Below are positions 20,497 to 40,450 of a DNA stretch of 64,000 nt, in pieces; within the stretch, counting starts at the first letter, position 1; each line of letters opens with the position of its first letter. A program made the position numbers and the translations under genes. The DNA is from Chloroflexota bacterium. Its GTDB lineage: Bacteria; Chloroflexota; UBA4733. The notes below the pieces were generated by a model. It searched no databases. It saw only the letters and a program-made list of their open reading frames with translations, and was not told the DNA's origin. The stretch covers positions 70,981 to 134,980 of the forward strand of contig DAIMXP010000002.1 of assembly GCA_036734945.1 (NCBI GenBank), in the 5' to 3' direction.

Positions 20497-21066
20497 TCAC
20501 GGCAGGAGTTGGAACCGATAGGTGTCGAGGATATCGACCAGCAAAGGCAGATGCACCTGGTCAGCGAGCCCGCCTTGCACTTGAGCCTGCAAGACCCCTT
20601 GCGCCCGGTCAAAGAGCACGAGGCTGCCCCGTTGTGGGTCGTGCCGCGACGAGTAGTAGAGACCATCAGGCTGCTGCGGATGTCGCCAGAAAGCAAGCGC
20701 CCACCTTCCGCACAGCGCATAGTCGCGTCCGGCCCACAACCCCGCATCGGCGCCAACGTGCGCGAGTCCTGCCCCAGTCAGGTCGACGAGATCAAGCGGT
20801 CGCGACGTTTCCAGTCGCACGAGGCACATGTCCCCTATGGTTCGCCTATCCACGCGATTGTTTCCAGTGTCGCGTCCCAACGTCTCAATGAAAGCGCCAT
20901 GGGCATCAGCCGCAGCGTACAGGGCGCGATAGGCACCCTGGGGGCAGCCCGGCGCATCGAAGCGATTGTGTCCGGTGCAGCCGAAGTACACGGCGCCCGT
21001 TTGACAGGAGTGCAAGCGCCACCAGGTCTGCCCGAAGGCGGTCAACGGCAGAGATCGTTGCTGCAA
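20497..21066 (-). CDS. RES-domain toxin
   Basis: WWRLHS...GHNRFDAPG...YAAADAHGAFIETL...YYSSRHD is a RES-family pattern. It lies downstream of an Xre/DUF2384-type gene. Confidence 0.78.
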   Translation of the reverse strand: MQQRSLPLTAFGQTWWRLHSCQTGAVYFGCTGHNRFDAPGCPQGAYRALYAAADAHGAFIETLGRDTGNNRVDRRTIGDMCLVRLETSRPLDLVDLTGAGLAHVGADAGLWAGRDYALCGRWALAFWRHPQQPDGLYYSSRHDPQRGSLVLFDRAQGVLQAQVQGGLADQVHLPLLVDILDTYRFQLLP

Positions 21067-21110
21067 GTCAGCGGGAGGCTCAGGATGAGGCGCCGGCGCC
21101 GAGCTGGCGA

Positions 21111-21758
21111 TTACCCTGCTCCATGCTCGCCAAAGGCTCGCGCCGCGCGTCGCACGTCCTGTATCCGGCCATCACGCAACGCATGGAGCGGAGTCACACC
21201 TTCCAATCGGCGGTCACCCGTAGTCATGAAGTGTGCTTGCATCCAGGGGCTAAAATGCTTCAGGTCGCCCAGTACATCCTCAAGACCCGTGAGGGCGCCA
21301 CTTTCGGCGAATTGCCAGACGGGATAGGCATAGCCACGCCGCCCCAGACTGAGCCCGATCAACCGATTGCCACGCCGTCGGTTGTCGACCGACTGGCGCG
21401 TCACGTGCAGGAGGCGCGCAGCCTCACTGGCGGTAATCGTCCCGCCCTCGGCTTGTAGCAACTCCTCCCGTCCCTGCAGACCACGCAGCAGGGCGGGCGC
21501 CAGGGGACTCTCTACGCGCAGCGCGGCCAGAACTTCGGGCTGCTCCAACAGACGGAGGAGCACGCCGTAGCTGGATGCTTCGCCAGCAGCGTCTCCCGCG
21601 GCGCGCGTATCCATGCGCGGCACAGCGTCCGCGACAGCGTTGAGCGCTCGTGTCACGAGTGCTTGCTGGGCTGTATTCTTGCTGGCGCGCAAGACGCGCG
21701 CGATCGCCTGCGCCGTGCTTTGCGGTGCTTGCGCCAGTAAATCCGCTGCAGCGCTCAC
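21111..21758 (-). CDS. Xre/MbcA/ParS-like antitoxin (DUF2384 C-terminal domain)
   Basis: HTH-like ITASEAARLLHVTRQSVDNRR and C-terminal WMQAHFMTTGDRRLEGVTPLHALRDGRIQDV. Forms an operon with the RES gene. Confidence 0.7.
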   Translation of the reverse strand: MSAAADLLAQAPQSTAQAIARVLRASKNTAQQALVTRALNAVADAVPRMDTRAAGDAAGEASSYGVLLRLLEQPEVLAALRVESPLAPALLRGLQGREELLQAEGGTITASEAARLLHVTRQSVDNRRRGNRLIGLSLGRRGYAYPVWQFAESGALTGLEDVLGDLKHFSPWMQAHFMTTGDRRLEGVTPLHALRDGRIQDVRRAARAFGEHGAG

Positions 21759-24198: not shown

Positions 24199-25686
24199 AT
24201 GGAGGGATCGTTAACGACACGCCGAGCCGTCCTGGGTGTGCTTGCGGGCGGGATCGCGGTGGCGCTAAGTAGCTGTGCTGCCCCAATGCCGTCCCTCCCA
24301 TTCCGTCCGACGCCGCTTCCGACCCGAGTCACCGTTGTGGTCGGTGACGCCTACGTACACGCCACCGGTGATCCAGCGCACCGCGAGACGCAGGTCATTA
24401 ACCTAGACGACTCAGTGCCCAAATGGGTGACAGCGGCCGAGGAGATGCTGCGTGGACGGGTAGCGATGACCGTTCAGACCGCCGACCTTCTCCATGCTAC
24501 CTTCTGGCAGGAAATTACTGCCGGGGGCGTGACAATGGAGCAGCGACTGTATCTCACTAGCCACGCCATGCTCTGGCGTTTGCGTGCCGGGGGCCTCGTC
24601 GCGGACGTACATGGGCAGATGGCACAAGACAAGGGCCTGGCGGGAGGGCGCCTCCATCCAGATGCGGTCGCCGCGCTACAATGGCAAGGACAGCAAGCGG
24701 GACTGCCGGTGGCACTCTGGCCGATGCTGGCGGCAACGGATGCGCGGCTGCCGGCGCCACCAGTTGATTGGACGTGGGAGGATGCCGCCAGACTTCCTGC
24801 GGGCGCCGGGTGGCCGGTGCAGCTCATGCCCAATGCTCCACCACTGGAGGCGTGGCTCTGGTCCCATCAGGCTGACCTCGCCACAGCGGATGGGTCCAAG
24901 CTGTTGATTAACGAGTCAACGGGAATAGCCGCGCTCGCCGCCTACGCGCGAGCGTTCGGGCCGACTGGGGCCTTGAGTCCATTGCCTGGTGGCACAACGC
25001 CGTTCGGCGCAATGCCTCAGGTGATTCAGGCTTGGACAGCGCAGGCAGTGGCCATGCGGGACCGACAGATACAGAACCGGCAGGTCGTCGCGTGGTTCCC
25101 CGCTGATGAGTGGCCGCCCACTACCACCGGCGCGCATCGTTGGCAGGATGCCGTTGGCTCGCTGCGTCGTCTTGCCTCACCGGGCGCGACACAGTCTGGC
25201 CTGCCCATGGTCGTATACGGGCTGGGCATCCCTAACGCTGCCCCCAAGCCCGATCTCGTGTATCAGGTGGCACGGGCATTGCAAGATGCGGCGCCCAAGT
25301 TCCTTGCGTACTCGCCGTTCAGGCTCGACCAGGGTGCGGACGGGCTGCGACGCCAATGGGGCCAACTCGATATAGACCAGGCGGCGATGCTGGCGCAGCT
25401 CCTCACGCTTCACCTTCGCCCGGTCTGGGGAGTTCCCCGTCCGCCGTTTGCCTTGGGTAACTGGCCGCTGGGCGATCCGTCCACGATCACCGATGCCATG
25501 CAGTTCACCGGCACAGGACCGACTGGCATGCTTTCCAACCAGGCAGAAACCTCTGCCATGTTCGACGCGCTGACCAAGAGCGTGAGCCTGGTAACGGCGC
25601 TCCGCATTCTGGCACCGGGAGCTACTGCTGCCAATGCTGGGCATCTGCTCTCCGTCATCTTCAGGCTCATGGCGCAGCCGGCTTGA
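24199..25686 (+). CDS. orphan solute-binding-protein-like lipoprotein L1 (cassette A)
   Basis: TTRRAVLGVLAGGIAVALSSC (RR plus lipobox). The central region loosely resembles ABC family-1 SBPs and the paralogue at 38984..40450. No permease or ATPase is nearby. Confidence 0.6.
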   Translation: MEGSLTTRRAVLGVLAGGIAVALSSCAAPMPSLPFRPTPLPTRVTVVVGDAYVHATGDPAHRETQVINLDDSVPKWVTAAEEMLRGRVAMTVQTADLLHATFWQEITAGGVTMEQRLYLTSHAMLWRLRAGGLVADVHGQMAQDKGLAGGRLHPDAVAALQWQGQQAGLPVALWPMLAATDARLPAPPVDWTWEDAARLPAGAGWPVQLMPNAPPLEAWLWSHQADLATADGSKLLINESTGIAALAAYARAFGPTGALSPLPGGTTPFGAMPQVIQAWTAQAVAMRDRQIQNRQVVAWFPADEWPPTTTGAHRWQDAVGSLRRLASPGATQSGLPMVVYGLGIPNAAPKPDLVYQVARALQDAAPKFLAYSPFRLDQGADGLRRQWGQLDIDQAAMLAQLLTLHLRPVWGVPRPPFALGNWPLGDPSTITDAMQFTGTGPTGMLSNQAETSAMFDALTKSVSLVTALRILAPGATAANAGHLLSVIFRLMAQPA

Positions 25687-26042: not shown

Positions 26043-26600
26043 ATGACTGGAATTTGGCTCACCGCATTCGTGGCCCTCTGGCTAGTCGTGCTGCTTCTCG
26101 TAGCCATCGTGATCGGGGTGCTTCGCCACATCGGTATTCTCTATGGTCAGATGGTCCGTTCTTCGGGACCTCCAACAGAGTTGCGTATCGGGCAGTTGCT
26201 GCCAGACCTGAATTTACTGACGTCCAATGAGACAACAATGACCATCGGCCAATTCGCAGGAAGAATCTCAGATGTCGTTTTGATTAGTCCCGGATGCACC
26301 GAGTGCGAAAGGCTACTGGATCTCTTGGTAGAGGGCGATGTAGCCGGAGATCCAGCGGATAGACGAGTGATCATCAGCATAGGAGATATGCTGGCGACAC
26401 GCGAGATCCTGCAGAGTCATCAGGTTAGTCTGGATGATACAGTCTTGATCGATACAGGGGACAAGATTAGAAGGTTGTGGGGAGCCCACACAACGCCCGT
26501 GACAATTGTGGTTGACGAGCATTTAATGGTGGTGAGACAGGTCGTAGGTGTGGTCGATTCTCGGCACCTTCTACCTTTACCACAGCAGATTTGTGTTTAA
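26043..26600 (+). CDS. MauD-like membrane-anchored thioredoxin (cassette B)
   Basis: MTGIWLTAFVALWLVVLLLVAIVIGVLRHIGILYGQ ... VVLISPGCTEC. Same architecture as the copies at 31041 and 37721. Confidence 0.8.
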   Translation: MTGIWLTAFVALWLVVLLLVAIVIGVLRHIGILYGQMVRSSGPPTELRIGQLLPDLNLLTSNETTMTIGQFAGRISDVVLISPGCTECERLLDLLVEGDVAGDPADRRVIISIGDMLATREILQSHQVSLDDTVLIDTGDKIRRLWGAHTTPVTIVVDEHLMVVRQVVGVVDSRHLLPLPQQICV

Positions 26601-26679: not shown

Positions 26680-27096
26680 ATGCCAGGAGCACCGTCGGTC
26701 AATGTGCGGCCGTTGTCGCCAAAGCGGGACATTCCCGGTATCCTCTGGTCTTATACGCCGACATTGGGCGACGTTGGTGACGAGGCGTACTTGGGGCGCA
26801 TCGTAGTGGAGGTTACCGATGACGCAGAAAGGGTCGTGTTTATCGGTGTGAATGAGTCGATCGCTCGGCGGGCTGCAGCAGCCCTACAAGGAGGACATTC
26901 GTTTCCGCGGTCGGCCACCATTTGGCCGACAGTACCGATTACCGGAGCGGTACCCTCCGGGCAAATATATCGAGGGAGGGTGATTCTGGAATTCTGGAGT
27001 TCTACTATGAACATCGCGGTCTCAGAACTCGGCGGAAGAGCCGCCGAGTTGGTACTGCGCGCAGGCAAGGTGCTGGAGTCCTTCCCGGCTGCGTAG
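26680..27096 (+). CDS. uncharacterised cytoplasmic protein, cassette-specific family X (copy 1)
   Basis: 138 aa, with no signal peptide or TM segment. Shares YLGRIVVEV...IWP...YRGRVILEFW with 31699..32145 and 33757..34200. Confidence 0.7.
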   Translation: MPGAPSVNVRPLSPKRDIPGILWSYTPTLGDVGDEAYLGRIVVEVTDDAERVVFIGVNESIARRAAAALQGGHSFPRSATIWPTVPITGAVPSGQIYRGRVILEFWSSTMNIAVSELGGRAAELVLRAGKVLESFPAA

Positions 27097-27260
27097 TACT
27101 GGATGGGTAGACACCGACGTGAGTCGTTGCGTGGCCGGTGCATGCGCAACCGATGCGGTGGTACCTGTGTGCCGTATCTGTTTGGCGAATGCGGCAGTAA
27201 GAAAGCGTGGCAAGAGTGAGCGGCCTGGCATTGGGCGGTGGCAGGATCGGAGGAACTTCG

Positions 27261-27620
27261 ATGAACGAGAAGCTGACTGTGCTGGATCGACTGACGAGGT
27301 CTGCGGCATTACGGCTGTCACGTCGTCGTCTTGGTGGGAAAGTGCTGACAGCTGGTCTCCTTGCAGCGCTCGTACAGTTATTCGGGTTGGGTGTGCTGCC
27401 TGCCTATGCCATCACCTGCTGCGGTGATCCCTATTGCAAAGACTGCAGTGTGACATGCAGTGGCTGTGCGTGCGGCGGCACGTATAGCGGCGTGGTTTGT
27501 AGTCCAAACGGGCTGTACTGTGCGGATGACACTTGTCCCGATTGCTACGGTTATCTCTATAAGTGCTGTGCTTACGCGTGTAATAGCGGCTGCACAGGCG
27601 GATATTTGTCGGTATGCTGA
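27261..27620 (+). CDS. Tat-signal cysteine-rich precursor P2 (50-aa leader + 69-aa core, 16 Cys)
   Basis: ATG follows GGAGG. MNEKLTVLDRLTRSAALRLSRRRLGGKVLTAGLLAALVQLFGLGVLPAYA | ITCCGDPYCKDCSVTCSGCACGG...CSPNGLYCADDTCPDC...LSVC. Confidence 0.8.
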   Translation: MNEKLTVLDRLTRSAALRLSRRRLGGKVLTAGLLAALVQLFGLGVLPAYAITCCGDPYCKDCSVTCSGCACGGTYSGVVCSPNGLYCADDTCPDCYGYLYKCCAYACNSGCTGGYLSVC

Positions 27621-29980: not shown

Positions 29981-30721
29981 TTGCGAGTGTATGCTATCCT
30001 CGTTGGCAAACCTCGGGGCCGGCGGCGCCACTCCCTCACGCAAAGCCGGTTCTTGCTCACCACGAGTCGGCACTTCCGGTCGCTCCTAGATGAGATCCTC
30101 CTGCAGTACGACCTCACGGCGACGTCGGCCACGTTGCGGGCGGCGCTGGAAGACCGGGAGCAGCCGGTCGTGCTCCTGCACGTCGAGCGCTGGGATACGG
30201 AGGCGGCGGGCCTCGTTGGGCGTCTGCTGGAGAGCACACCGCACGTCTACGTCATCTGTCCGCAGGCGGCCGATCTGCGCGTCGTCATCACCGTCTTGAA
30301 GACCGCCGCCGCCGATGCAACCGCTGACACCCCGCTGGCATAGCATGCCCTCGCGCTCAAGATTCGGCGGGTCGTGCGGGAACCGGAGCCCTGGCAGTGG
30401 CAGCTTGGTAGCCGCCGCTTCGTCCCGGCGGAAGGCCGTCTGTACGATCAGGGAAAGCGTATTGCGTTGACGGCAGCGGAGGTGCGGCTGCTCCGGCGGC
30501 TCTGCCTGGTCAGCGGAACGGAACCGCCCGGACGGTTGACGGTGGAGCAACTGGCATGGGAATTGGGCGGTAAGGCGACCAGCCGCGTGTCTTCGGCCCG
30601 CAACTACATCACGCAATTGCGGCGCAAGCTGGGCGATGATCCCAAAAAGCCGGTGATTCTCCGGCGCGACCGGGACGGGTATTGGGTCATCCTCGGCCTC
30701 CTCCCGGAACCATTGCATTGA
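29981..30721 (+). pseudogene. OmpR-type regulator with pseudo-receiver domain, interrupted by in-frame TAG (30341-30343)
   Basis: ORFs 29981..30343 and 30374..30721 share one frame. The read-through junction is ...ADTPLA*HALALKIRRVVRE, which falls in the receiver-output linker. The receiver lacks the acidic pocket and the phospho-Asp (FLLTTS, VLLHV). The output domain is LTAAEVRLLRRL...ITQLRRKLGDD...RDGYWVI. Confidence 0.6.
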
Positions 30722-31040: not shown

Positions 31041-31610
31041 ATGAGCGGTCTTTGGCTAGTCTCGTACGTTGTCATGTGGATCACTATTCTGCTCGTCGTT
31101 GCCTTGCTAATTGGAATCCTAAGGCATATTGGAATATTGTACGAACAGAGCGGCCGGCACCGAGCGTCGACTGATCTTCGTGCAGGTCAGGTTCTTCCTG
31201 ACCTCACCTTGAGTACCTTCGACGGAAGTCGTCTCCGCATATCTCATTTTGCGGGACATGCGACACATTTCGTGGTTGTGGCTCCTAACTGTTCAGCTTG
31301 CGGCGAGTTGCTGAGTCGCTTGCAAAAAGCAGCCAGCGACGACAGCGGTGCCATGGAACGACACGTCATCGTGAGCATGGGAAATCGGGCGGCCACGGCG
31401 GAATTACTTCAAGTGGCCGGAATGGTGCCTAATAGCTCGGTTCTAATTGATGAAGATGAGAAGATCAAAGGGGCTTGGGGAGTTCGGGCTACTCCGGTCA
31501 CACTGGAAGTTGACGAACAACTGAAAGTACTTAGGCAGATCATAGGTGCCGCCGACCTACGTCAACTTCCTCCACTAGTGCAACTCAGCGGAGCGCCGCA
31601 AGCAAACTAG
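31041..31610 (+). CDS. MauD-like membrane-anchored thioredoxin (cassette C)
   Basis: MSGLWLVSYVVMWITILLVVALLIGILRHIGILYEQ ... FVVVAPNCSACGELL. Confidence 0.8.
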   Translation: MSGLWLVSYVVMWITILLVVALLIGILRHIGILYEQSGRHRASTDLRAGQVLPDLTLSTFDGSRLRISHFAGHATHFVVVAPNCSACGELLSRLQKAASDDSGAMERHVIVSMGNRAATAELLQVAGMVPNSSVLIDEDEKIKGAWGVRATPVTLEVDEQLKVLRQIIGAADLRQLPPLVQLSGAPQAN

Positions 31611-31698: not shown

Positions 31699-32145
31699 AT
31701 GGCTACCGGTTCAAGTGGCCTAATCCCGGCGGTAGTCCCTATGCCAGGTTCCGGCCGGTCATCACCGGTTGCAGCTGTTCCAGGAGTCTGGGCGCACTTC
31801 ACGACCCTTGGGACTGTAGCCGGTGAGCAGTATCTGGGACGCATCGTGGTCGAACTGTTCGATGGGCGTGATCCCCCCGCGGTGGCCTTCATTGGCGCAG
31901 ATCGACAACTCGTTGAACGCGCAGTCGCCGCCTTGGGTGGGGGGGATGTGCCAGGGCCGGAACCTGCTATGTGGCCAGCCGGATCAATCATCGTCCCCAG
32001 CGAGCCAGCCGCAGCGTATCGCGGGCGGATCATGATGGAGTTTTGGCAAAGAACGGTGAAAGTTACCGCGTCGGGATCTGCTGGCAATACGGCGGATCTT
32101 GTCCAGCGAGCACTTCAGGCTTTGCAACGGGTTGGAGCGAGGTAG
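31699..32145 (+). CDS. uncharacterised cytoplasmic protein, family X (copy 2)
   Basis: YLGRIVVELFDG...MWPAGSIIVPSEPAAAYRGRIMMEFW. Paralogue of 26680..27096. Confidence 0.7.
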   Translation: MATGSSGLIPAVVPMPGSGRSSPVAAVPGVWAHFTTLGTVAGEQYLGRIVVELFDGRDPPAVAFIGADRQLVERAVAALGGGDVPGPEPAMWPAGSIIVPSEPAAAYRGRIMMEFWQRTVKVTASGSAGNTADLVQRALQALQRVGAR

Positions 32146-32312: not shown

Positions 32313-32702
32313 ATGGATATGACCAGGCACGACGTGACAGACAGACTCGGCGATCAACGCGCGGAACTGGGAGCATTCGATCGACTGACCAAAGCAACAG
32401 CGCTAGCATTGTCTCGGCGGCGAGTGCTAGTCGCTGGAGTGGTTACCTGGGCGGTACAACTGCTCGGCGTCGAGATCGCCAGCGCAAACGCATGCGAGTA
32501 CGGGTGCAACACTTGCTGCTTCGCTGCATGCGGGAATTGCGGCGTTTGTCCACCGGGAGGTGCCATGTGTTGCAGCTCAGGCGGCGTTTGCCAATCGGTT
32601 CCTTGCTGCAGGTGCGGAAGTTGTGGCGCATGTGGCTACTTTAGTCTTTGCTTCAAGGTCTGTGATGATGGCTGTAGTGAGACTTGGTGCCCCGCATGCT
32701 AG
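32313..32702 (+). CDS. Tat-signal cysteine-rich precursor P3 (58-aa leader + 71-aa core, 20 Cys)
   Basis: ...AFDRLTKATALALSRRRVLVAGVVTWAVQLLGVEIASA | NACEYGCNTCCFAACGNCGVCPPGGAMCCSSGGVCQSVPCCRCGSCGACGYFSLCFKVCDDGCSETWCPAC. Confidence 0.8.
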   Translation: MDMTRHDVTDRLGDQRAELGAFDRLTKATALALSRRRVLVAGVVTWAVQLLGVEIASANACEYGCNTCCFAACGNCGVCPPGGAMCCSSGGVCQSVPCCRCGSCGACGYFSLCFKVCDDGCSETWCPAC

Positions 32703-33201: not shown

Positions 33202-33618
33202 ATGGAACCCGATGCCGCGGCCACGCAATGGAGCGCGGCCCTTCGCAAATCCGGTACCTTCGATCGGCTGATCAAGGCTACGGCGATCAGGCTGTCTCGT
33301 CGCCGCTTCGCCGGGAATGTGCTGGCCGCGACAGCGGCCGCCTGGGCGGTGCAGCTATTAGGCTTCCCTACGCCCCCCGTATATGCATTTGACTGCACCA
33401 ATTGCAATTGCTGTACCGGTGTCTGTAGCTGCCTATACGCCCCCGCGAGTTGTTGTAGCCCGAATGGTGTCTACTGCTACTCGGGAGATTGCACTTGTCA
33501 GGGTCGAGACTGTCAGTGCGGATGCTTTGCAATGTTCTTCAACGTCTGCAATGACGGATCACATGCCACGAGTTGCCCGGCCTGCAACTACCCTTGTCCA
33601 ACCTGCAACCCTTGTTGA
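33202..33618 (+). CDS. Tat-signal cysteine-rich precursor P4 (62-aa leader + 76-aa core, 20 Cys)
   Basis: ATG follows AAAGGAG. ...TFDRLIKATAIRLSRRRFAGNVLAATAAAWAVQLLGFPTPPVYA | FDCTNCNCCTGVCSCLYAPASCCSPNGVYCYSGDCTCQGRDCQCGC...CPTCNPC. Confidence 0.8.
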   Translation: MEPDAAATQWSAALRKSGTFDRLIKATAIRLSRRRFAGNVLAATAAAWAVQLLGFPTPPVYAFDCTNCNCCTGVCSCLYAPASCCSPNGVYCYSGDCTCQGRDCQCGCFAMFFNVCNDGSHATSCPACNYPCPTCNPC

Positions 33619-33756
33619 GACAAGTCTGACCTCTTACGAAAATTCTCGAAGTGGGGGAAGTGTGTTTCTTCTCGCGAGAGAGCAAGCGGGTTCTGGGTTG
33701 ACGGTTACAGCAGAGCGTCAATGAGCGGTGAGGTAAAGCTTCGAGGAGGTGGCATA

Positions 33757-34200
33757 ATGTCAGGAGTCGGTTATCAGCCAACATTCGCGCCAGTACGAGT
33801 GCCCCAACAATGGATCGCCCGAATAGGCCCGAGTAGTAGTCCCGCCGTTTGGTCATTGGTTCCGACATTGGGGCGGGTGGCTAGCGAGAAGTATTTGGGC
33901 CGCATCGTGGTAGAGGTCTTCGACACTGGAGGTAAAATCGCCCTGCTTGGCATCGGGAAGGAATACATCCCACGGGCGATCGCGGCTCTGCAACAGACGG
34001 GGGCATTGCCGCACGAGACGACAGTTTGGCCTTCCGAACCAATCATGGGCCACCAATTACCCGACCAGACCTACCGTGGCTGAGTTGTCGTTGAGATGTG
34101 GGAGGTGGGTACTAAAGTGAATGGATCGTCCAGCACCGATGCGAGCGTAAGCTTGTTGCATCGAGCCAGCGAGGCCTTGAGGATTTTCCCTATCCTGTGA
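33757..34200 (+). pseudogene. family X paralogue (copy 3) with in-frame TGA at 34081-34083
   Basis: KYLGRIVVEVFDTGG...VWPSEPIMGHQLPDQTYRG*VVVEMWEVGTKVNGSS...ALRIFPIL*. The TGA replaces the Arg of the conserved YRGR(V/I)xxEFW motif, and the frame stays open to 34200. Confidence 0.6.
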
Positions 34201-34966
34201 GAACGACTTCGGCCATCCCCACAATCCTGGGCCAAGTGATGACCAGGAGGACAGCATTGGCGCGCCAGAGTTCATTCACCTCGGGCTGAAAGGCGGACGT
34301 GCGAACGCTCCTCCGAGATGGAAGTCCACAACGGGTCGCGTCCCGCGGAACTGTGGTCATGCCGTCCGCTTGGATGTTGGCTGGTACCTGCGGCGTTTGC
34401 GCGGCGCCGTGCAAAGGAACATGGACCAGATGAAGCAACAGGCCCGCCTTGCTTCGCCCGTGCGCTGCGTTGGTTGCATGCCTTCCGCGAATGCCGGTCC
34501 GGGCGGCCCCTCCGAGCTCAGCGGAGCCGTGGGCGACACCGCCCAGGCGGTGGCAGGCCTCGCACTTGACAACGTGGCCGAACAGGAAGGCTCCGGGTCA
34601 GCAGCAGGAACATCCACATCGGCCAGTGCGCATGCGGTCGCGGTAGCTGCGCCGAAAGGCGGTGACGTAGCCGGGCAGGCCCACCGCATGGCAGTGCATG
34701 TTCCCCTGCCCGATCGGCCCACGCAACTCACATTCAGGCTGGTGGCAGAAGTGGTCCTGCCGGTCCAACGCCAGCTCCCCATGCTCCTCATGGATACGTC
34801 CTTGATGGATACGTCCTTGCAAGCGCAGCTGGGCCGGACGGACCCAGCCCTCTTCAACCGATCAACCGCCGATTACGGTTCCACGGAATGCTGCCCGACT
34901 ACCGCTGTCTGAACCTTTCGCCATCGCGAGAGATATATATTAGGGAGTAGAAAGGACGGGAACGTC

Positions 34967-35554
34967 GTGCGACTTGACTATCTCAACGAGCAGACGGCCG
35001 TTCGTCTCTGTCAGCGAGGCGATCCTGCAGGTCTGGCTTCGCTCGTGCTGCGACAACAGGCTGAAGCGCTCAGAGTGGCTGCGTTGATCACCCGAGATCC
35101 GCAACTCGCGGAAGATGTCGTGGCGGATGCCTTTCTCACCGCGTTTCGACGCATCCATAGCTTTGATGCTGAGCGCCCGTTCCGGCCTTGGTTCCTGCGC
35201 GTGGTTACGAATACGGCGCTGAAGTCGCTCCGCTCTCGTCGTCGCGAGATACCCTGGCTTGCTACTGCGGATCATGGGTCGTCTACGGTACCCGTGCCCT
35301 TCGGTATCGCTGCGCGGGCGGAGGAGAGCACAGCCAAGGACATAGCGACGGTAGACGATCATGAAACCGTCCGTTGGGCACTGCGGGCACTTCCACCGAA
35401 GCAACGCGCTGCGATCATTCTCAGGTACTTCGCTGATCTGAACGAAGGGGAAATCGCGCTGGCACTGGGCATTCCAAGGGGAACGGTGAAGTCGCGTCTT
35501 TCCAATGGAATTGCTCGCTTGCGCGTCAAACTCGTCGAGACCTGGCCATCCTAA
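34967..35554 (+). CDS. ECF-type sigma-70 family factor (1)
   Basis: Region 2 (AEDVVADAFLTAFRRIHSFDAERPFRPWFLRVVTN) and region 4 (LPPKQRAAIILRYFADLNEGEIALALGIPRGTVKSRL). GTG start. Confidence 0.85.
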   Translation: MRLDYLNEQTAVRLCQRGDPAGLASLVLRQQAEALRVAALITRDPQLAEDVVADAFLTAFRRIHSFDAERPFRPWFLRVVTNTALKSLRSRRREIPWLATADHGSSTVPVPFGIAARAEESTAKDIATVDDHETVRWALRALPPKQRAAIILRYFADLNEGEIALALGIPRGTVKSRLSNGIARLRVKLVETWPS

Positions 35555-35572: not shown

Positions 35573-36931
35573 ATGGATCCGTCAACCATTCGCCAAGTCC
35601 TGGAAGAGGAAGCCGAAGTATTGGTTCCTTTCCCTGCCGATCTCAGGCCACGCGTTCTGCTAGCGCTCAGCGCTGAGCGCGCCGCCGCGCAGAGACGGCG
35701 CTTTGGTGTCGTTGGAGCCATCCTTGTGGCGGTTGTCGCGCTTGCCGTCACTCTGGGGCCCGCCTACGCGGGCGCTATCGGCCAAGACGTGGTCGCGCGA
35801 CTGCAGGTAGCGCTTGGTGGAAGGACCGAAGTGCAAATGCAGCGCGACGTGCAAGCGCCAGTCGCTGTCGCTCCCAGTCCTCCCTTTTCCGTATTCCAGC
35901 CGACCGCCCTTCCCGTGGACCTGCCGCGTCGTGGGGTGACCTATGACCCCGGCGCGATAGACCCCGCTACGGGGCTGCGCTTACCCTCGGTGGAGGGAAC
36001 AGGTGACGTCGACTACGTGCGCCTTGGTCTTCGCATCGAGCGGCGGGATGCGTTTCTCCTCGTGCGCTACGTCGGCTCAGCCGACCGGGGCACCGGGGGT
36101 CGCGAACTCATTCTACTCGAGCGCCAGGCGACACACGCGGAGCAACTTCCCGCTGGCTCCCGCATGCAAGTCCTCGGTCAGCCAGCGTCACTCGGAAGGA
36201 CAGCGAACGGGCTCCTGCTGTCCACCATCATGAGTGGTACCTGGCTACAGGTCTGGACGAATGTGAGTCAGATGGAGCTGGATCAGGTTGTGCGAAGCTT
36301 ACAAATGACTTCCCCTGGCAACGGCGCACCGGCACCTCCGACCTATCCAACGGCGACACCCGCTCCCAGCCCTGTTCCCGGCAGCTATCCTCCCTTAGTG
36401 CATCCGACATATCTCCCGGCCGGCTTCGACAACGCGAGTATCGGCTACTTTACGATCCCTCCTGAGGGCCAGAACCTCAGGCTTCCACCGTTGAATTCCG
36501 GGGTCTCCGGGCCGGTCCGACGATCGGACCTCAAGCCGATTCTGGAGCGGCTTGACTGGCCGCAAATCGAAAAGGCCTGGAACGCCGTAGGAGGCGGCGT
36601 GTTCGGAGGCTTCTTTACGGGCGACACCAAGTTGGACTTTCTTGAGATCGGACCGGTCCGTCTCGATGGCAGCCCGGATGGCACTGCTATGACCACCGAC
36701 GGAGGCCGCACCGTCTGGATGGTCGGGAGTGAGGCAGGCGCCGGGTTCAAAGCCCGCTGGCGAGACGGTTCTCCTTTGGATCTCACGGAGAGCTACCTTG
36801 CCCAAAACCCCAATCCCAGAGCGCGAGAGGTAGTCATCTGGGTCGATGGAGATCGCGTCGTGTGGCTACGCTCCGACCTACCGCAGACCGAGATGCTCAG
36901 ATTCATCGACGGGCTGACGACGAATCGCTGA
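35573..36931 (+). CDS. single-pass membrane protein, putative anti-sigma factor with large extracytoplasmic domain
   Basis: Starts 19 bp after the sigma gene. Short cytoplasmic N-terminus, then TM segment FGVVGAILVAVVALAVTLG, then ~380 aa outside the membrane. No zf-HC2 motif was seen, so the role is inferred from position. Confidence 0.5.
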   Translation: MDPSTIRQVLEEEAEVLVPFPADLRPRVLLALSAERAAAQRRRFGVVGAILVAVVALAVTLGPAYAGAIGQDVVARLQVALGGRTEVQMQRDVQAPVAVAPSPPFSVFQPTALPVDLPRRGVTYDPGAIDPATGLRLPSVEGTGDVDYVRLGLRIERRDAFLLVRYVGSADRGTGGRELILLERQATHAEQLPAGSRMQVLGQPASLGRTANGLLLSTIMSGTWLQVWTNVSQMELDQVVRSLQMTSPGNGAPAPPTYPTATPAPSPVPGSYPPLVHPTYLPAGFDNASIGYFTIPPEGQNLRLPPLNSGVSGPVRRSDLKPILERLDWPQIEKAWNAVGGGVFGGFFTGDTKLDFLEIGPVRLDGSPDGTAMTTDGGRTVWMVGSEAGAGFKARWRDGSPLDLTESYLAQNPNPRAREVVIWVDGDRVVWLRSDLPQTEMLRFIDGLTTNR

Positions 36932-38983: not shown

Positions 38984-40450
38984 ATGATTTGCACGACACG
39001 CCGGTCGGTACTCCAGGCAGCAGCGAGCGCCCTCGCCGTTGGCCTGTGCAGCGCCTGTTCGGCCCCGATCTTCTCCAAAGGTTCGGTGGTCCGGGCGCTC
39101 CCCAAGCTGACCATCCTCGCAGCCTATCCGAGGTCGTCGTCTGGCGTCGCCAAGCCGGCCTGGCTGACGCCGCTGCGAGAGGCGGCCGACCATCTCAACG
39201 CCACCCGGCAGGACCAACTCGGCGCGGTATTGGACCTTCGCACTTTTACCGTTGACCAAGCACCGGGTGCCGTCGCCACCGCCGGCAACGGCCAAGTCAG
39301 CAGCTTCAACATGACCACCTACGACAATGCCCTGGCCGAGGCCGTCAGCGAACAGGCCGACGTGCTCATCTCCATGGAGACGCTTGGACTGGGCATGCTG
39401 ACGCAGTTGGACCACGCCAAGGTGCTGGCGGCGTTGGACACGTACTTGGCGCGGGAACGACCCAGCCAGCAGGTCGACTACTACCCGGGCGTCCTCGGCC
39501 TGGGCCGCATCGCCGGACGGCAAGTCGCTCTTCCCCTGCAGGTGCAGCCCTGGCTGATGCGCTACGACGCCAAGCTGTTCCAGACCATCGGCGTCGGCTC
39601 CCCGCCGCCCGACCGGCCTTGGACCTGGCAACAGCTCATCGACCTTGCCCCCAAACTCGTCCAGCGCGATCCCAAGACCGGCGCCAACCTCCGCTGGGCA
39701 TGCCGGATCGAGACCTTGCCGGTGGAGATCGCCATCTGGCAGGCCGGCGGCGATATCGTGAACGCCCAGAATGCCGTCGTCTTGGACCAGCCGGCGGCGA
39801 TTCAGGGCGTCACCTTCTGGCGCGACCTGGAGGTTGCCGATCAACTTGATGCGCCCAACACCCTGCCGCCCCGGCTCACCGGCACGCGCTCCCATCCCTA
39901 CGCCATCGCCACGCTCGGCGGGGGCTTCGCCGCCACCACCTTCGAGCCAACCACCCGGTACAGTTACCATCTGGCGGACATCCCCAAGAACTGGGACGCG
40001 GGCCTGGGCTTCGCTCCTATCCCCGCCGGGGCGCCGGCCGGCAACGTGCCGGTGACCAAGCTCGATCTGGAGTTGGCGGGTGCCGTCGCCGCTCACAGCC
40101 GGCAGCCCGACCTGGCCTTCACGGCGCTGCGGGCGCTGGAGCAGGCCATCGGTCCCGCGCTGCTGCTCTCGGCGATCCGTCCGCTGGCGTCTCGGCGCTT
40201 GAAAGACGGCAGTATCGATCCGCGCCTGGCGACGGCGCTGGGCTGGGGCATGGCCCTTGGCCGCGCCAGTAGCGCCGATGCGCTCGGCGCGGATGCCCTC
40301 AATCGGCTGGTCGACGTGTTCCCCGGCCTGCCGAGAGCCGATGCTCCCGGCCTGCCGCCACAGCAACTCTGCGCCGACGTGGCGAAGCTGCTCCGCTACC
40401 GGCAGGTATGCGGTCCGGTGCCGGCCTACTGCCCTGCCGCCGCGCCGTGA
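38984..40450 (+). CDS. orphan ABC-type solute-binding-protein-like lipoprotein L2 (cassette E)
   Basis: TTRRSVLQAAASALAVGLCSAC (RR plus lipobox). ALPLQVQPWLMRYDAKLFQTIGVGSPPPDRPWTWQQLIDLAPKL...IWQAGGDIV is typical of family-1 SBPs. No transporter genes are nearby. Confidence 0.7.
   Translation: MICTTRRSVLQAAASALAVGLCSACSAPIFSKGSVVRALPKLTILAAYPRSSSGVAKPAWLTPLREAADHLNATRQDQLGAVLDLRTFTVDQAPGAVATAGNGQVSSFNMTTYDNALAEAVSEQADVLISMETLGLGMLTQLDHAKVLAALDTYLARERPSQQVDYYPGVLGLGRIAGRQVALPLQVQPWLMRYDAKLFQTIGVGSPPPDRPWTWQQLIDLAPKLVQRDPKTGANLRWACRIETLPVEIAIWQAGGDIVNAQNAVVLDQPAAIQGVTFWRDLEVADQLDAPNTLPPRLTGTRSHPYAIATLGGGFAATTFEPTTRYSYHLADIPKNWDAGLGFAPIPAGAPAGNVPVTKLDLELAGAVAAHSRQPDLAFTALRALEQAIGPALLLSAIRPLASRRLKDGSIDPRLATALGWGMALGRASSADALGADALNRLVDVFPGLPRADAPGLPPQQLCADVAKLLRYRQVCGPVPAYCPAAAP

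What the first reader, a model, noticed from the sequence alone, without database searches (positions are those of the whole stretch)
26680..27096. Cassette-specific uncharacterised cytoplasmic protein family (three paralogues) positioned immediately next to the class-2 precursors
**Seen in sequence.**
- The three copies are 26680..27096, 31699..32145 and 33757..34200.
- They share YLGRIVVE(V/L), a (I/M/V)WP motif and YRGR(V/I)xxEFW.
- They have no signal peptide or TM segment, and I recognise no known domain.
- Each copy lies adjacent to a class-2 precursor gene, upstream in B and C and downstream in D.

**Inference.** Candidates are a leader-binding Tat proofreading chaperone (analogous to TorD/REMP logic), an immunity protein, or a maturation factor.
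Basis: partly seen in the sequence, partly recalled or inferred. Interest (0 to 1): 0.62.

Follow-up and report, generated by a model that had tools for sequence, protein, structure and literature searches.

The report
Orphan partner protein of cysteine-rich precursors
Three copies (one broken by a stop codon) of a small, unannotated protein with no detectable fold relative sit beside secreted cysteine-packed mini-protein genes here, as their relatives do in 11 other Chloroflexota-type loci, which makes it a likely dedicated binding partner for those mini-proteins.

Summary
The three paralogues are real (37-39% identical). Copy 3 carries an in-frame TGA exactly at the invariant Arg of the second motif, and the same TGA is present in six independent metagenome assemblies.

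The family ("X") is small: 108 clusters among 1.84 billion proteins, with no Pfam, NCBIfam or PDB relative. It is an internal duplication of a beta-beta-alpha unit carrying [YF]xGR[VI]V[VI]E[VL]W. AlphaFold is confident (pLDDT 88, pTM 0.83), and Foldseek finds nothing similar.

In 14 of 16 informative loci, X lies directly beside a Cys-rich gene with a twin-arginine leader. The usual order is MauE, MauD-like, precursor, X, often followed by an ECF sigma/anti-sigma pair.

"Cytoplasmic" holds only for the leaderless majority. About 22% of members carry a signal anchor or lipobox, or form the extracytoplasmic C-terminus of anti-sigma, LuxR-type or OmpR-type membrane regulators. These forms are interleaved with leaderless ones in the tree. 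Two anchored X genes occupy the same cassette slot, one after a precursor that keeps the canonical leader box.

This weakens the TorD/NapD-like leader-reader idea. It favours a partner that binds the Cys-rich domain itself and works at least partly outside the cell, with leaderless forms possibly co-exported through Tat. The mechanism is inferred, not shown.

The parts
26680..27096 (+). X1, leaderless family-X protein (138 aa), cassette B
   Evidence: ORF. Profile hit E=4e-36. AF2 pLDDT 87.8, pTM 0.83, beta-beta-alpha twice. Identical in 10 metagenome contigs.
31699..32145 (+). X2, leaderless family-X protein (148 aa), cassette C
   Evidence: ORF. Profile hit E=1e-32. SD GAGGTGAGG before the ATG.
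33757..34200 (+). X3, third paralogue, interrupted by an in-frame stop; probably a recent pseudogene, and its truncated 108-aa product would lack the second beta-beta-alpha unit
   Evidence: Both pieces match the profile (5e-26 and 2e-6). Strong SD GAGGAGGTGG before the ATG.
34081..34083 (+). In-frame TGA replacing the invariant Arg of the second GRxxxE motif
   Evidence: The same codon is present in 6 of 6 independent assemblies. The Arg is invariant or nearly so in the family alignments.
27261..27620 (+). Class-2 Cys-rich precursor P2 with leader box LDRLTRSAALRLSRRR (a GTG at 27207 is an alternative start)
   Evidence: gene calls; alignment of 12 precursors.
32313..32702 (+). Class-2 Cys-rich precursor P3
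33202..33618 (+). Class-2 Cys-rich precursor P4, same reading frame as X3
26043..26600 (+). MauD-like membrane-anchored thioredoxin-fold protein of cassette B
   Evidence: Gene call in L001 mapped to the window. Weak AhpC-TSA hit.
31041..31610 (+). MauD-like protein of cassette C
   Evidence: weak AhpC-TSA hit.
34967..35554 (+). ECF sigma factor downstream of X3
   Evidence: Sigma70_r2/r4_2.
35573..36931 (+). Anti-sigma factor; homologue of anti-sigma::X fusion proteins elsewhere
   Evidence: BLASTP to the N-terminal 243 aa of P0042, E=1e-13.
30374..30721 (+). OmpR-type winged-helix regulator next to cassette C; the same regulator class is fused to X in P0060
   Evidence: Weak Trans_reg_C hit. 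P0060 is Trans_reg_C-TM-X.

Best explanation
X is a dedicated binding partner (escort) of the class-2 Cys-rich, twin-arginine-leader mini-proteins encoded next to it.

**Proposed mechanism.** X is made without a signal peptide. It binds the Cys-rich part of its neighbouring precursor before export and accompanies it to the outer face of the membrane by Tat co-export ('hitchhiking'). There the membrane-bound MauE/MauD-like oxidoreductases lock the 14-22 cysteines into disulfides. X acts as holder or template for that step, and possibly as the module that reports the mini-protein to the neighbouring ECF anti-sigma factor.

**How other lineages place the domain.** They put the same domain at the outer face by an N-terminal signal anchor, a lipobox, or fusion to the C-terminus of anti-sigma, LuxR-type or OmpR-type membrane regulators.

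**Shown.** The family exists, it has an internal duplication and a confidently predicted orphan fold, the window copies lack export signals, it is nearly always adjacent to these precursors, anchored and fused relatives are interleaved with leaderless ones, and copy 3 is interrupted by a stop.

**Inferred, with my odds.**
- Functional linkage to the precursor: about 0.85.
- Physical binding to the precursor: about 0.6.
- Site of action at least partly extracytoplasmic: about 0.55.
- Co-export of leaderless forms: about 0.3.
For: 1. **Conserved adjacency.** X sits directly beside a Cys-rich RR-leader ORF at three places in the window and in L014, L015, L016, L017, L018 (Chloroflexi bacterium AL-N1 MAG), L019, L023, L025, L026, L022 and L027. 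That is 14 of 16 informative cases. MauE and MauD-like genes lie upstream wherever enough flank exists.
2. **Export signals in relatives.** 23 of 104 near-complete domains are preceded by a TM segment or signal. 17 of the 23 are N-in by flank charge and none is reversed.
3. **Fusions.** The partners are GerE/LuxR HTH (P0048, P0070, P0073), Trans_reg_C (P0060), anti-sigma with DUF4367 (P0042, P0053, P0036) and a lipoprotein (P0015). P0042's N-terminal part is homologous to the window's own anti-sigma (E=1e-13).
4. **Interleaving.** Anchored and leaderless forms need at least 11 switches on the tree. The window's well-supported clade holds 13 anchored and 16 leaderless members, and the nearest neighbour of X1 and X2 is anchored P0010.
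5. **Anchored X in the same slot.** Anchored X occupies the same cassette position in L027 (MauE, MauD, precursor, X with a 13-bp gap) and in L022. The L027 precursor keeps the canonical box ADRWTRDAAIALSRRRF, so box conservation does not depend on a cytoplasmic X.
6. **Tat-like leaders.** The RR pair is present in all class-2 leaders examined, with F two residues after it in most. Tat, unlike Sec, can carry a pre-formed complex (established Tat knowledge).
7. **A folded domain.** X is predicted as a compact folded domain: pLDDT 87.8, pTM 0.83.
Against: - No binding or localisation data exist.
- The AF2 model of a natural in-frame precursor-X read-through chain gave pTM 0.49. Both domains were confident, but no docking could be read because PAE is not returned.
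- The Tat assignment rests on motifs only.
- The conserved leader box upstream of RR is left without a reader in this model.
- One leaderless X (L011) and one anchored X (L021) have no adjacent precursor.
- X3 is broken although its neighbour P4 is intact, so a strict 1:1 requirement is doubtful. L017 has two precursors and one X.
- In L027 an internal ATG with a strong SD could also yield a leaderless isoform, so 'anchored' may not be the only product there.
Confidence: 0.4

Rival explanations
1. X is a Tat proofreading chaperone in the REMP sense (TorD, DmsD, NapD logic). It stays in the cytoplasm, reads the conserved (L/I/F)DRLTKxxAxxLSRR box of the leader, shields it until the precursor is ready, and is released at TatBC.
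For: - X is leaderless and adjacent to an RR-leader gene in 12 of 13 informative leaderless cases.
- The class-2 leaders carry a long, conserved n-region box directly before RR, which needs a reader.
- X is the only soluble cytoplasmic candidate in the conserved cassette.
- In L022 (anchored X) the box is shortened.
Against: - 22% of the family is anchored outside or fused to the extracytoplasmic end of membrane regulators, and these forms are interleaved with leaderless ones.
- In L027 an anchored X follows a precursor with the full box.
- There is no sequence or fold relation to TorD/DmsD, NapD or HyaE.
- In the AF2 read-through chain the leader has pLDDT 48-60, so no confident leader docking is seen.
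Confidence: 0.15
2. X is an immunity or self-protection protein. It binds the mature (possibly antimicrobial) Cys-rich product and neutralises it, in the cytoplasm for leaderless forms and at the membrane surface for anchored or lipoprotein forms (LanI-like logic).
For: - X sits immediately next to the structural gene, as immunity genes do.
- Three diverged X paralogues pair with three diverged precursors.
- Anchored and lipoprotein versions exist.
Against: - No activity of the mini-proteins is known.
- One mechanism working on both sides of the membrane, with frequent switching between them, is unusual for immunity.
- X3 is inactivated while P4 is intact.
- Fusion of X to anti-sigma and HTH regulators does not fit immunity.
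- There is no homology to known immunity families.
Confidence: 0.12
3. X is primarily a sensor or ligand-binding module of the regulatory circuit. It works with the ECF anti-sigma factor (or a LuxR- or OmpR-type membrane regulator) to switch the cassette on, and its ligand may be something other than the neighbouring mini-protein, for example an envelope or redox cue.
For: - X is fused to three classes of membrane regulators.
- ECF sigma/anti-sigma genes lie within three genes of X in 9 loci, directly downstream in L015, L016 and L026.
- In L011, X lies between sigma genes without a precursor.
- The window's anti-sigma is homologous to the fusion protein P0042.
Against: - A leaderless protein cannot reach the extracytoplasmic face of the anti-sigma factor without an export route.
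- X1 and X2 in the window lie next to precursors, not next to the sigma pair.
- L027 has the cassette without an ECF pair.
Confidence: 0.15
4. X has no specific tie to the precursors. It is a gene of unrelated function that happens to travel with the cassette.
For: There is no direct functional evidence of any kind. Two X genes lack an adjacent precursor.
Against: Adjacency holds in 14 of 16 cases, across loci with G+C from 0.51 to 0.71 and X identities down to about 25%. Such conservation of order is not expected without functional coupling.
Confidence: 0.05

Closest known systems
Tat hitchhiker pairs (hydrogenase HybO/HybC and HyaA/HyaB, DmsA/DmsB, Streptomyces MelC1/MelC2 'caddie' system)
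   Same: A protein without a signal peptide is encoded next to a partner that carries a twin-arginine leader. The partner pair could leave the cell as a pre-formed complex.
   Different: - X has no homology to any of them.
- The signal-bearing partner here is a 60-90-residue cofactor-less Cys-rich domain.
- Close relatives of X have their own Sec-type anchors.
- Co-export is not demonstrated.
Redox-enzyme maturation proteins / Tat proofreading chaperones (TorD/DmsD family, NapD, HyaE/HybE)
   Same: A small leaderless protein is encoded beside its Tat substrate, and the substrate leader has an extended, conserved n-region.
   Different: - There is no sequence or fold similarity.
- Known REMPs are cytoplasmic (from memory), whereas 22% of family X is extracytoplasmic.
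- The substrates here are not cofactor enzymes.
mauE-mauD-mauA module of methylamine dehydrogenase clusters
   Same: A MauE membrane protein and a MauD thioredoxin-like protein precede a small, disulfide-rich, Tat-leader protein.
   Different: - From memory, mau clusters have no X-like gene.
- Whether this genome encodes a dehydrogenase large subunit was not tested.
- Foldseek did not match the predicted Cys-rich core to any PDB chain, so no match to the MADH light chain appeared.
Bacteriocin and lantibiotic immunity proteins (class IIa immunity proteins, LanI lipoproteins)
   Same: A small gene lies directly next to the peptide structural gene, and some relatives are lipoproteins or membrane-anchored outside.
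   Different: There is no homology, no known antimicrobial activity, and X is fused to regulators.
Extracytoplasmic sensor domains of ECF anti-sigma factors (e.g. DUF4367-containing anti-sigmas)
   Same: X occurs as the C-terminal extracytoplasmic domain of such anti-sigma factors, after a DUF4367 region (P0036, P0042).
   Different: X is a separate, unannotated domain, and most members are free-standing and leaderless.

Membership tests
REMP / Tat proofreading chaperones (TorD/DmsD, NapD, HyaE) | Sequence or fold membership in one of the known REMP families | tested here: not met
   No Pfam or NCBIfam hit for X1-X3, and 0 of 54 family members hit Pfam. The PDB profile search gave nothing below E=0.3. 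The best Foldseek PDB hit had E=0.35 and TM about 0.2.
REMP / Tat proofreading chaperones (TorD/DmsD, NapD, HyaE) | Cytoplasmic location throughout the family | tested here: not met
   The window copies are leaderless. However, 23 of 104 members carry an N-terminal anchor or signal, or are extracytoplasmic fusion domains.
REMP / Tat proofreading chaperones (TorD/DmsD, NapD, HyaE) | Encoded beside a twin-arginine-leader substrate | tested here: met
   14 of 16 informative loci.
REMP / Tat proofreading chaperones (TorD/DmsD, NapD, HyaE) | Binds the substrate's signal peptide | tested here: inconclusive
   In the AF2 model of the in-frame precursor-X chain the leader has pLDDT 48-60 and pTM is 0.49. 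No PAE or contacts are returned. A binding assay is needed.
Tat hitchhiker partner | No export signal of its own, and a partner with an RR leader encoded adjacent | tested here: met
   RR is present in all class-2 leaders examined. The assignment is at motif level only: TIGR01409 was not reached.
Tat hitchhiker partner | Forms a complex with the partner before export and is found outside the cytoplasm in a Tat- and partner-dependent way | not testable with these tools
   Support is indirect only: close relatives place the domain outside.
Bacteriocin immunity proteins | Homology to a known immunity family, or demonstrated protection against the adjacent product | tested here: not met
   No Pfam hit. 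Protection cannot be tested here.
mauEDA-type oxidative-folding module | MauE (PF07291) and a thioredoxin-fold MauD-like protein encoded upstream of a Cys-rich exported protein | tested here: met
   This holds for the neighbourhood, not for X itself. MauE hit 2e-23, AhpC-TSA or Redoxin hits.
mauEDA-type oxidative-folding module | An X counterpart in canonical mau clusters | not tested
   From memory, mau clusters (mauFBEDACJGLMN) have no such gene. No search of them was run.
DUF4367 anti-sigma sensor domain | Match to PF14285 | tested here: not met
   X itself has no hit. In P0036, DUF4367 lies upstream of the X domain.

The most novel reading that the evidence does not exclude
X is a new-fold receptor/escort domain for disulfide-packed bacterial mini-proteins.

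- Leaderless X leaves the cell by riding on a 60-90-residue Cys-rich Tat substrate, which would be the smallest known Tat carrier.
- Outside, it templates the substrate's MauD/MauE-driven oxidative folding.
- The X:mini-protein complex, or X fused directly to anti-sigma, LuxR- or OmpR-type membrane regulators, then reports the product to transcription.

Together this would make a self-sensing secreted mini-protein circuit in Chloroflexota.
Probability: 0.2. Interest if true: 0.85.

Novelty: new variant of a known kind. Interest (0 to 1): 0.6.

Why it matters
The family is unannotated: it is 'hypothetical protein' wherever a source names it, has no Pfam or NCBIfam model, and has no solved or predicted structural relative in PDB or BFVD. 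Yet it has one of the cleanest conserved gene neighbourhoods one can ask for.

If X binds the Cys-rich domain, it gives a handle on how bacteria fold mini-proteins with 7-11 disulfides. It also gives a candidate for a new Tat co-export pair. The same domain fused to three classes of membrane regulators would define a new extracellular sensor module.

The hypotheses are directly testable with a handful of recombinant proteins. Practically, X is a good marker gene for finding this undescribed class of Cys-rich secreted proteins in metagenomes.

Tried and rejected
- **The search for homologous proteins with X1 alone** found only itself. With alignments it returned only 9 and 6 members, so its word index is a poor fit for this family.
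- **The search for related loci.** A1 found nothing in genome contigs. A4 found one MAG locus and three metagenome loci.
I therefore could not search the window's own genome for more copies or for tatA/tatC, and could not build a genome-wide phylogenetic profile.
- **Fold searches.** Foldseek against PDB and BFVD, for X alone and for the precursor+X chain, gave nothing significant. The recurrent weak hits (PUR repeats, Mago, ERH, CorA N-domain) have TM 0.1-0.3 and I rejected them.
- **AF2 read-through chain.** This was used as a surrogate for a complex prediction. It is uninformative about docking because only pLDDT and pTM are returned.
- **Read-through fusion idea.** In the window and in L017 the precursor's TGA and X share a frame, with 'C*DKSD' and 'C*PKSDK' after the stop. 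I rejected this as no more than chance: about 1.5 such cases are expected among 11 loci, and the frames differ in the other loci.
- **Selenocysteine or recoding at the X3 TGA.** I rejected this because the position is an invariant Arg and the change is a single C-to-T step from CGA.
- **Literature.** Searches for MauE, MauD, Cys-rich, Tat and Chloroflexi returned nothing relevant.
- **Promoter and terminator scan.** Not different from shuffles.

Full report
**1. Observation**

The region 22.6-40.5 kb of the window carries five + strand cassettes of MauE-like or MauD-like genes with small Cys-rich genes. Within it, ORFs at 26680..27096 (138 aa, X1) and 31699..32145 (148 aa, X2) are intact.

The third stretch, 33757..34200 (X3), contains an in-frame TGA at 34081-34083, reading ...QTYRG*VVVEMWEVG.... 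With the stop read as Arg, the three align over their whole length at 37-39% identity. They share W23, PTLG, YLGRIVVE, AAL, WP and YRGRxxxExW.

A profile of the family finds only these three places in the six frames of the window. Both pieces of X3 score on their own.

The same DNA, including the TGA, is present without a single difference in six independent metagenome contigs that cover X3 (ENA, JGI permafrost and soil, Logan). X1 is identical in all ten contigs. The stop is therefore a real allele, not an assembly error. Because homology continues for 39 codons after it and the affected residue is the family-invariant Arg, I read X3 as a recent nonsense pseudogene. Its 108-aa product would lack half of the fold.

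The frames close 6 and 3 codons upstream of the X1 and X2 ATGs. The open stretch before X3 has no hydrophobic segment, and all three starts have Shine-Dalgarno-like sequences. The absence of a signal peptide in the window's copies is therefore solid.

**2. The family**

A profile search of 1.84 billion cluster representatives found 108 proteins at E <= 1e-3 and 42 at E <= 1e-10. The family is small but real.

- None of 54 members hits Pfam, and X1 and X2 hit nothing in NCBIfam.
- A profile search of PDB sequences is empty.
- Sources that name members call them 'hypothetical protein'.
- The only named genomes are Chloroflexi bacterium AL-N1 and AL-W MAGs.

The protein is an internal duplication. 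[YF]xGR[VI][VF][VI]E[VL]W occurs twice, about 60 residues apart, in nearly all members. The two halves of X1-X3 align with z = 4.8-8.5, and 0 of 500 shuffles reach the observed score.

AlphaFold2 on a 19-sequence alignment gives pLDDT 87.8 and pTM 0.83. The order of elements is beta(37-46), beta(50-55), alpha(59-70), loop, beta(97-106), beta(110-116), alpha(121-133).

Foldseek finds no relative. The best PDB hit has E = 0.35 with TM about 0.2, and the best BFVD hit has E = 0.03 with TM below 0.3.

**3. Neighbourhood**

I recovered 15 informative foreign contexts. The recurrent order is MauE, MauD-like, Cys-rich precursor, X.

| Loci | Arrangement |
|---|---|
| L014, L016, L017 (two precursors), L018, L019, L023 | full order MauE, MauD-like, precursor, X |
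| L027 | full order, with an anchored X |
| L015, L025, L026 | cut upstream but show precursor, X |

An ECF sigma/anti-sigma pair follows directly in L015, L016 and L026. It lies convergent just downstream in L014, L018, L023 and L025.

The precursors form one family. They share the leader (L/I/F)DRLTKxxAxxLSRRxF, then a hydrophobic stretch and an AxA-like site, and then a core with CCSPNGxYC...VCDDG and 10-22 Cys.

Counting the window's three, 14 of 16 informative X genes are adjacent to such a gene. The exceptions are L011 (X between two sigma genes) and L021. The window's class-1 precursors (23897, 38390) lack both the box and X, and are followed instead by SBP-like lipoproteins.

**4. The point that changes the reading**

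That holds for the window's copies and for roughly three quarters of the family.

Of 104 near-complete domains, 23 are preceded by a TM segment or signal peptide. By flank charge, 17 of the 23 are N-in and the rest are ties. In several, the topology is fixed by an N-terminal cytoplasmic domain:

- GerE/LuxR HTH-TM-X (P0048, P0070, P0073);
- Trans_reg_C-TM-X (P0060);
- anti-sigma-TM-DUF4367-X (P0042, P0053, P0036);
- P0015, which has a lipobox.

The N-terminal 243 residues of P0042 are homologous to the window's own anti-sigma factor 35573-36931 (E = 1e-13). A winged-helix regulator (30374-30721) and, in L027, GerE regulators sit beside cassettes. X is therefore found fused to the same three classes of regulators that neighbour it.

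On a maximum-likelihood tree, anchored and leaderless forms need at least 11 switches, 4 of them forced by well-supported branches. The window's clade (SH-aLRT 95) holds 13 anchored and 16 leaderless members, and anchored P0010 is the nearest neighbour of X1 and X2. The tree is weakly resolved, and a few 'leaderless' rows are fragments, so these counts are approximate.

Anchored X also occupies the cassette slot. In L027 it starts 13 bp after a precursor with the full box (ADRWTRDAAIALSRRRF). In L022 it follows a Cys-rich RR ORF. One caveat applies: in L027 an internal ATG is preceded by GAGGTGAGG, the same context as the window's X2 start, so a leaderless isoform may also be made.

**5. Mechanism**

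A domain that keeps its place beside the precursor while switching repeatedly between no signal and an outward-facing anchor is hard to reconcile with a chaperone that reads the cytoplasmic n-region of a Tat leader. The box also stays intact when X is outside.

The simplest unifying reading is that X binds the Cys-rich domain itself and works, at least in part, on the outer face. That is where the membrane-anchored MauD-like and MauE proteins act.

For the leaderless majority this requires an export route. The only one suggested by the locus is co-export with the RR-leader partner. It would also explain why a protein whose disulfides must form outside uses a Tat-type rather than a Sec-type leader.

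The fusions suggest that X (with its ligand) also talks to the anti-sigma or one-component regulators.

All of this is inference. As a surrogate complex prediction, I used the fact that in L017 (and in window cassette D) the precursor and X share a frame separated by one TGA. AF2 on this chain, with a block-diagonal alignment, gave pTM 0.49. The Cys-rich core (pLDDT 84-94, beta-rich) and X (84-93) were both confident, but the leader was not (48-60). No contacts are returned, so the result supports neither docking mode.

I put about 0.85 on functional linkage, 0.6 on physical binding, 0.55 on an at least partly extracytoplasmic site of action, and 0.3 on co-export.

**6. Rivals**

- **REMP-like box reader (0.15).** It explains the box and the leaderless state, but not section 4.
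- **Immunity (0.12).** It fits the adjacency and the paired paralogues. It does not fit the regulator fusions or the broken X3 beside an intact P4.
- **Regulatory sensor with another ligand (0.15).** It fits the fusions and L011, but not the position of X1 and X2 or the lack of a signal.
- **No specific tie (0.05).** It is contradicted by the conserved gene order across loci with G+C from 0.51 to 0.71.

**7. Comparison and novelty**

In logic, the closest systems are Tat hitchhiker pairs (hydrogenase small and large subunits, DmsAB, MelC1/MelC2), REMPs, the mauEDA module and immunity genes. X is a member of none of them: every sequence or fold membership test failed.

I rate it a new variant of a known kind (a dedicated partner of a Tat-leader protein), built on an unannotated family with no detectable fold relative. 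If co-export and sensing are confirmed, there is a real chance it is something further from the known.

**8. Limits**

- Most contexts are short metagenome contigs.
- Contexts of the regulator fusions could not be fetched.
- The Tat assignment is motif-based.
- Earlier AI notes on this genome describe the leader box, the TGA and the cassettes. I re-derived those points independently and used the notes only as leads.

Noticed in passing
L022:1000-1365: The Cys-rich RR-leader ORF upstream of anchored X (P0114) has an in-frame stop inside the core (...YYCGAF*CNCPPCNC...) and a shortened leader box (IDRDGALSLPRRRF). It may be a decaying precursor or an assembly error.
   Followed up: partly
window 33616-33756 and L017:5908-5943: In both loci the precursor ends in TGA and the frame stays open into X, with similar residues after the stop (C*DKSD and C*PKSDK). 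A read-through precursor-X fusion is conceivable, but two such cases among 11 loci is about what chance gives.
   Followed up: partly
L027:4946-5548: Anchored X (P0011) has an internal ATG preceded by GAGGTGAGG, the same context as the start of window X2. Secreted or anchored and leaderless isoforms may therefore come from one gene. P0010 and P0114 also have an internal Met at the equivalent place.
   Followed up: partly
L017:5593-5910 (model m77467f691b7d residues 43-105): AF2 predicts the class-2 Cys-rich core as a confident (pLDDT 84-94) five-stranded beta-rich mini-domain. No PDB chain, and therefore no methylamine dehydrogenase light chain, matched it by Foldseek.
   Followed up: partly
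L011:304-2296: An X gene 90%-class related to that of L016 sits between a divergent ECF sigma/anti-sigma pair and a truncated copy of the L016-type sigma gene, with no precursor. It looks like a rearranged partial duplicate of the cassette tail.
   Followed up: no
window 24199-25686 and 38984-40450; L018:12306-13622: SBP-like lipoproteins follow the class-1 precursors in the slot where X sits in class-2 cassettes. A 438-aa lipoprotein of similar kind also lies beyond the sigma pair in the AL-N1 MAG locus that has X. It may be an analogous extracytoplasmic binder.
   Followed up: no
window ~20497-21758 (- strand) and upstream: A RES-domain toxin gene with an upstream 215-aa partner, and a PemK-type toxin fragment further upstream. 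These are annotated by Pfam on the identical metagenome contigs and look like toxin-antitoxin modules flanking the cassette array.
   Followed up: no
window 34370-34912: A 180-codon ORF between X3 and the ECF sigma gene is called as a gene in several metagenome contigs. It has no family hit and a low-complexity, Ala/Gly-rich sequence, so whether it codes is doubtful.
   Followed up: no
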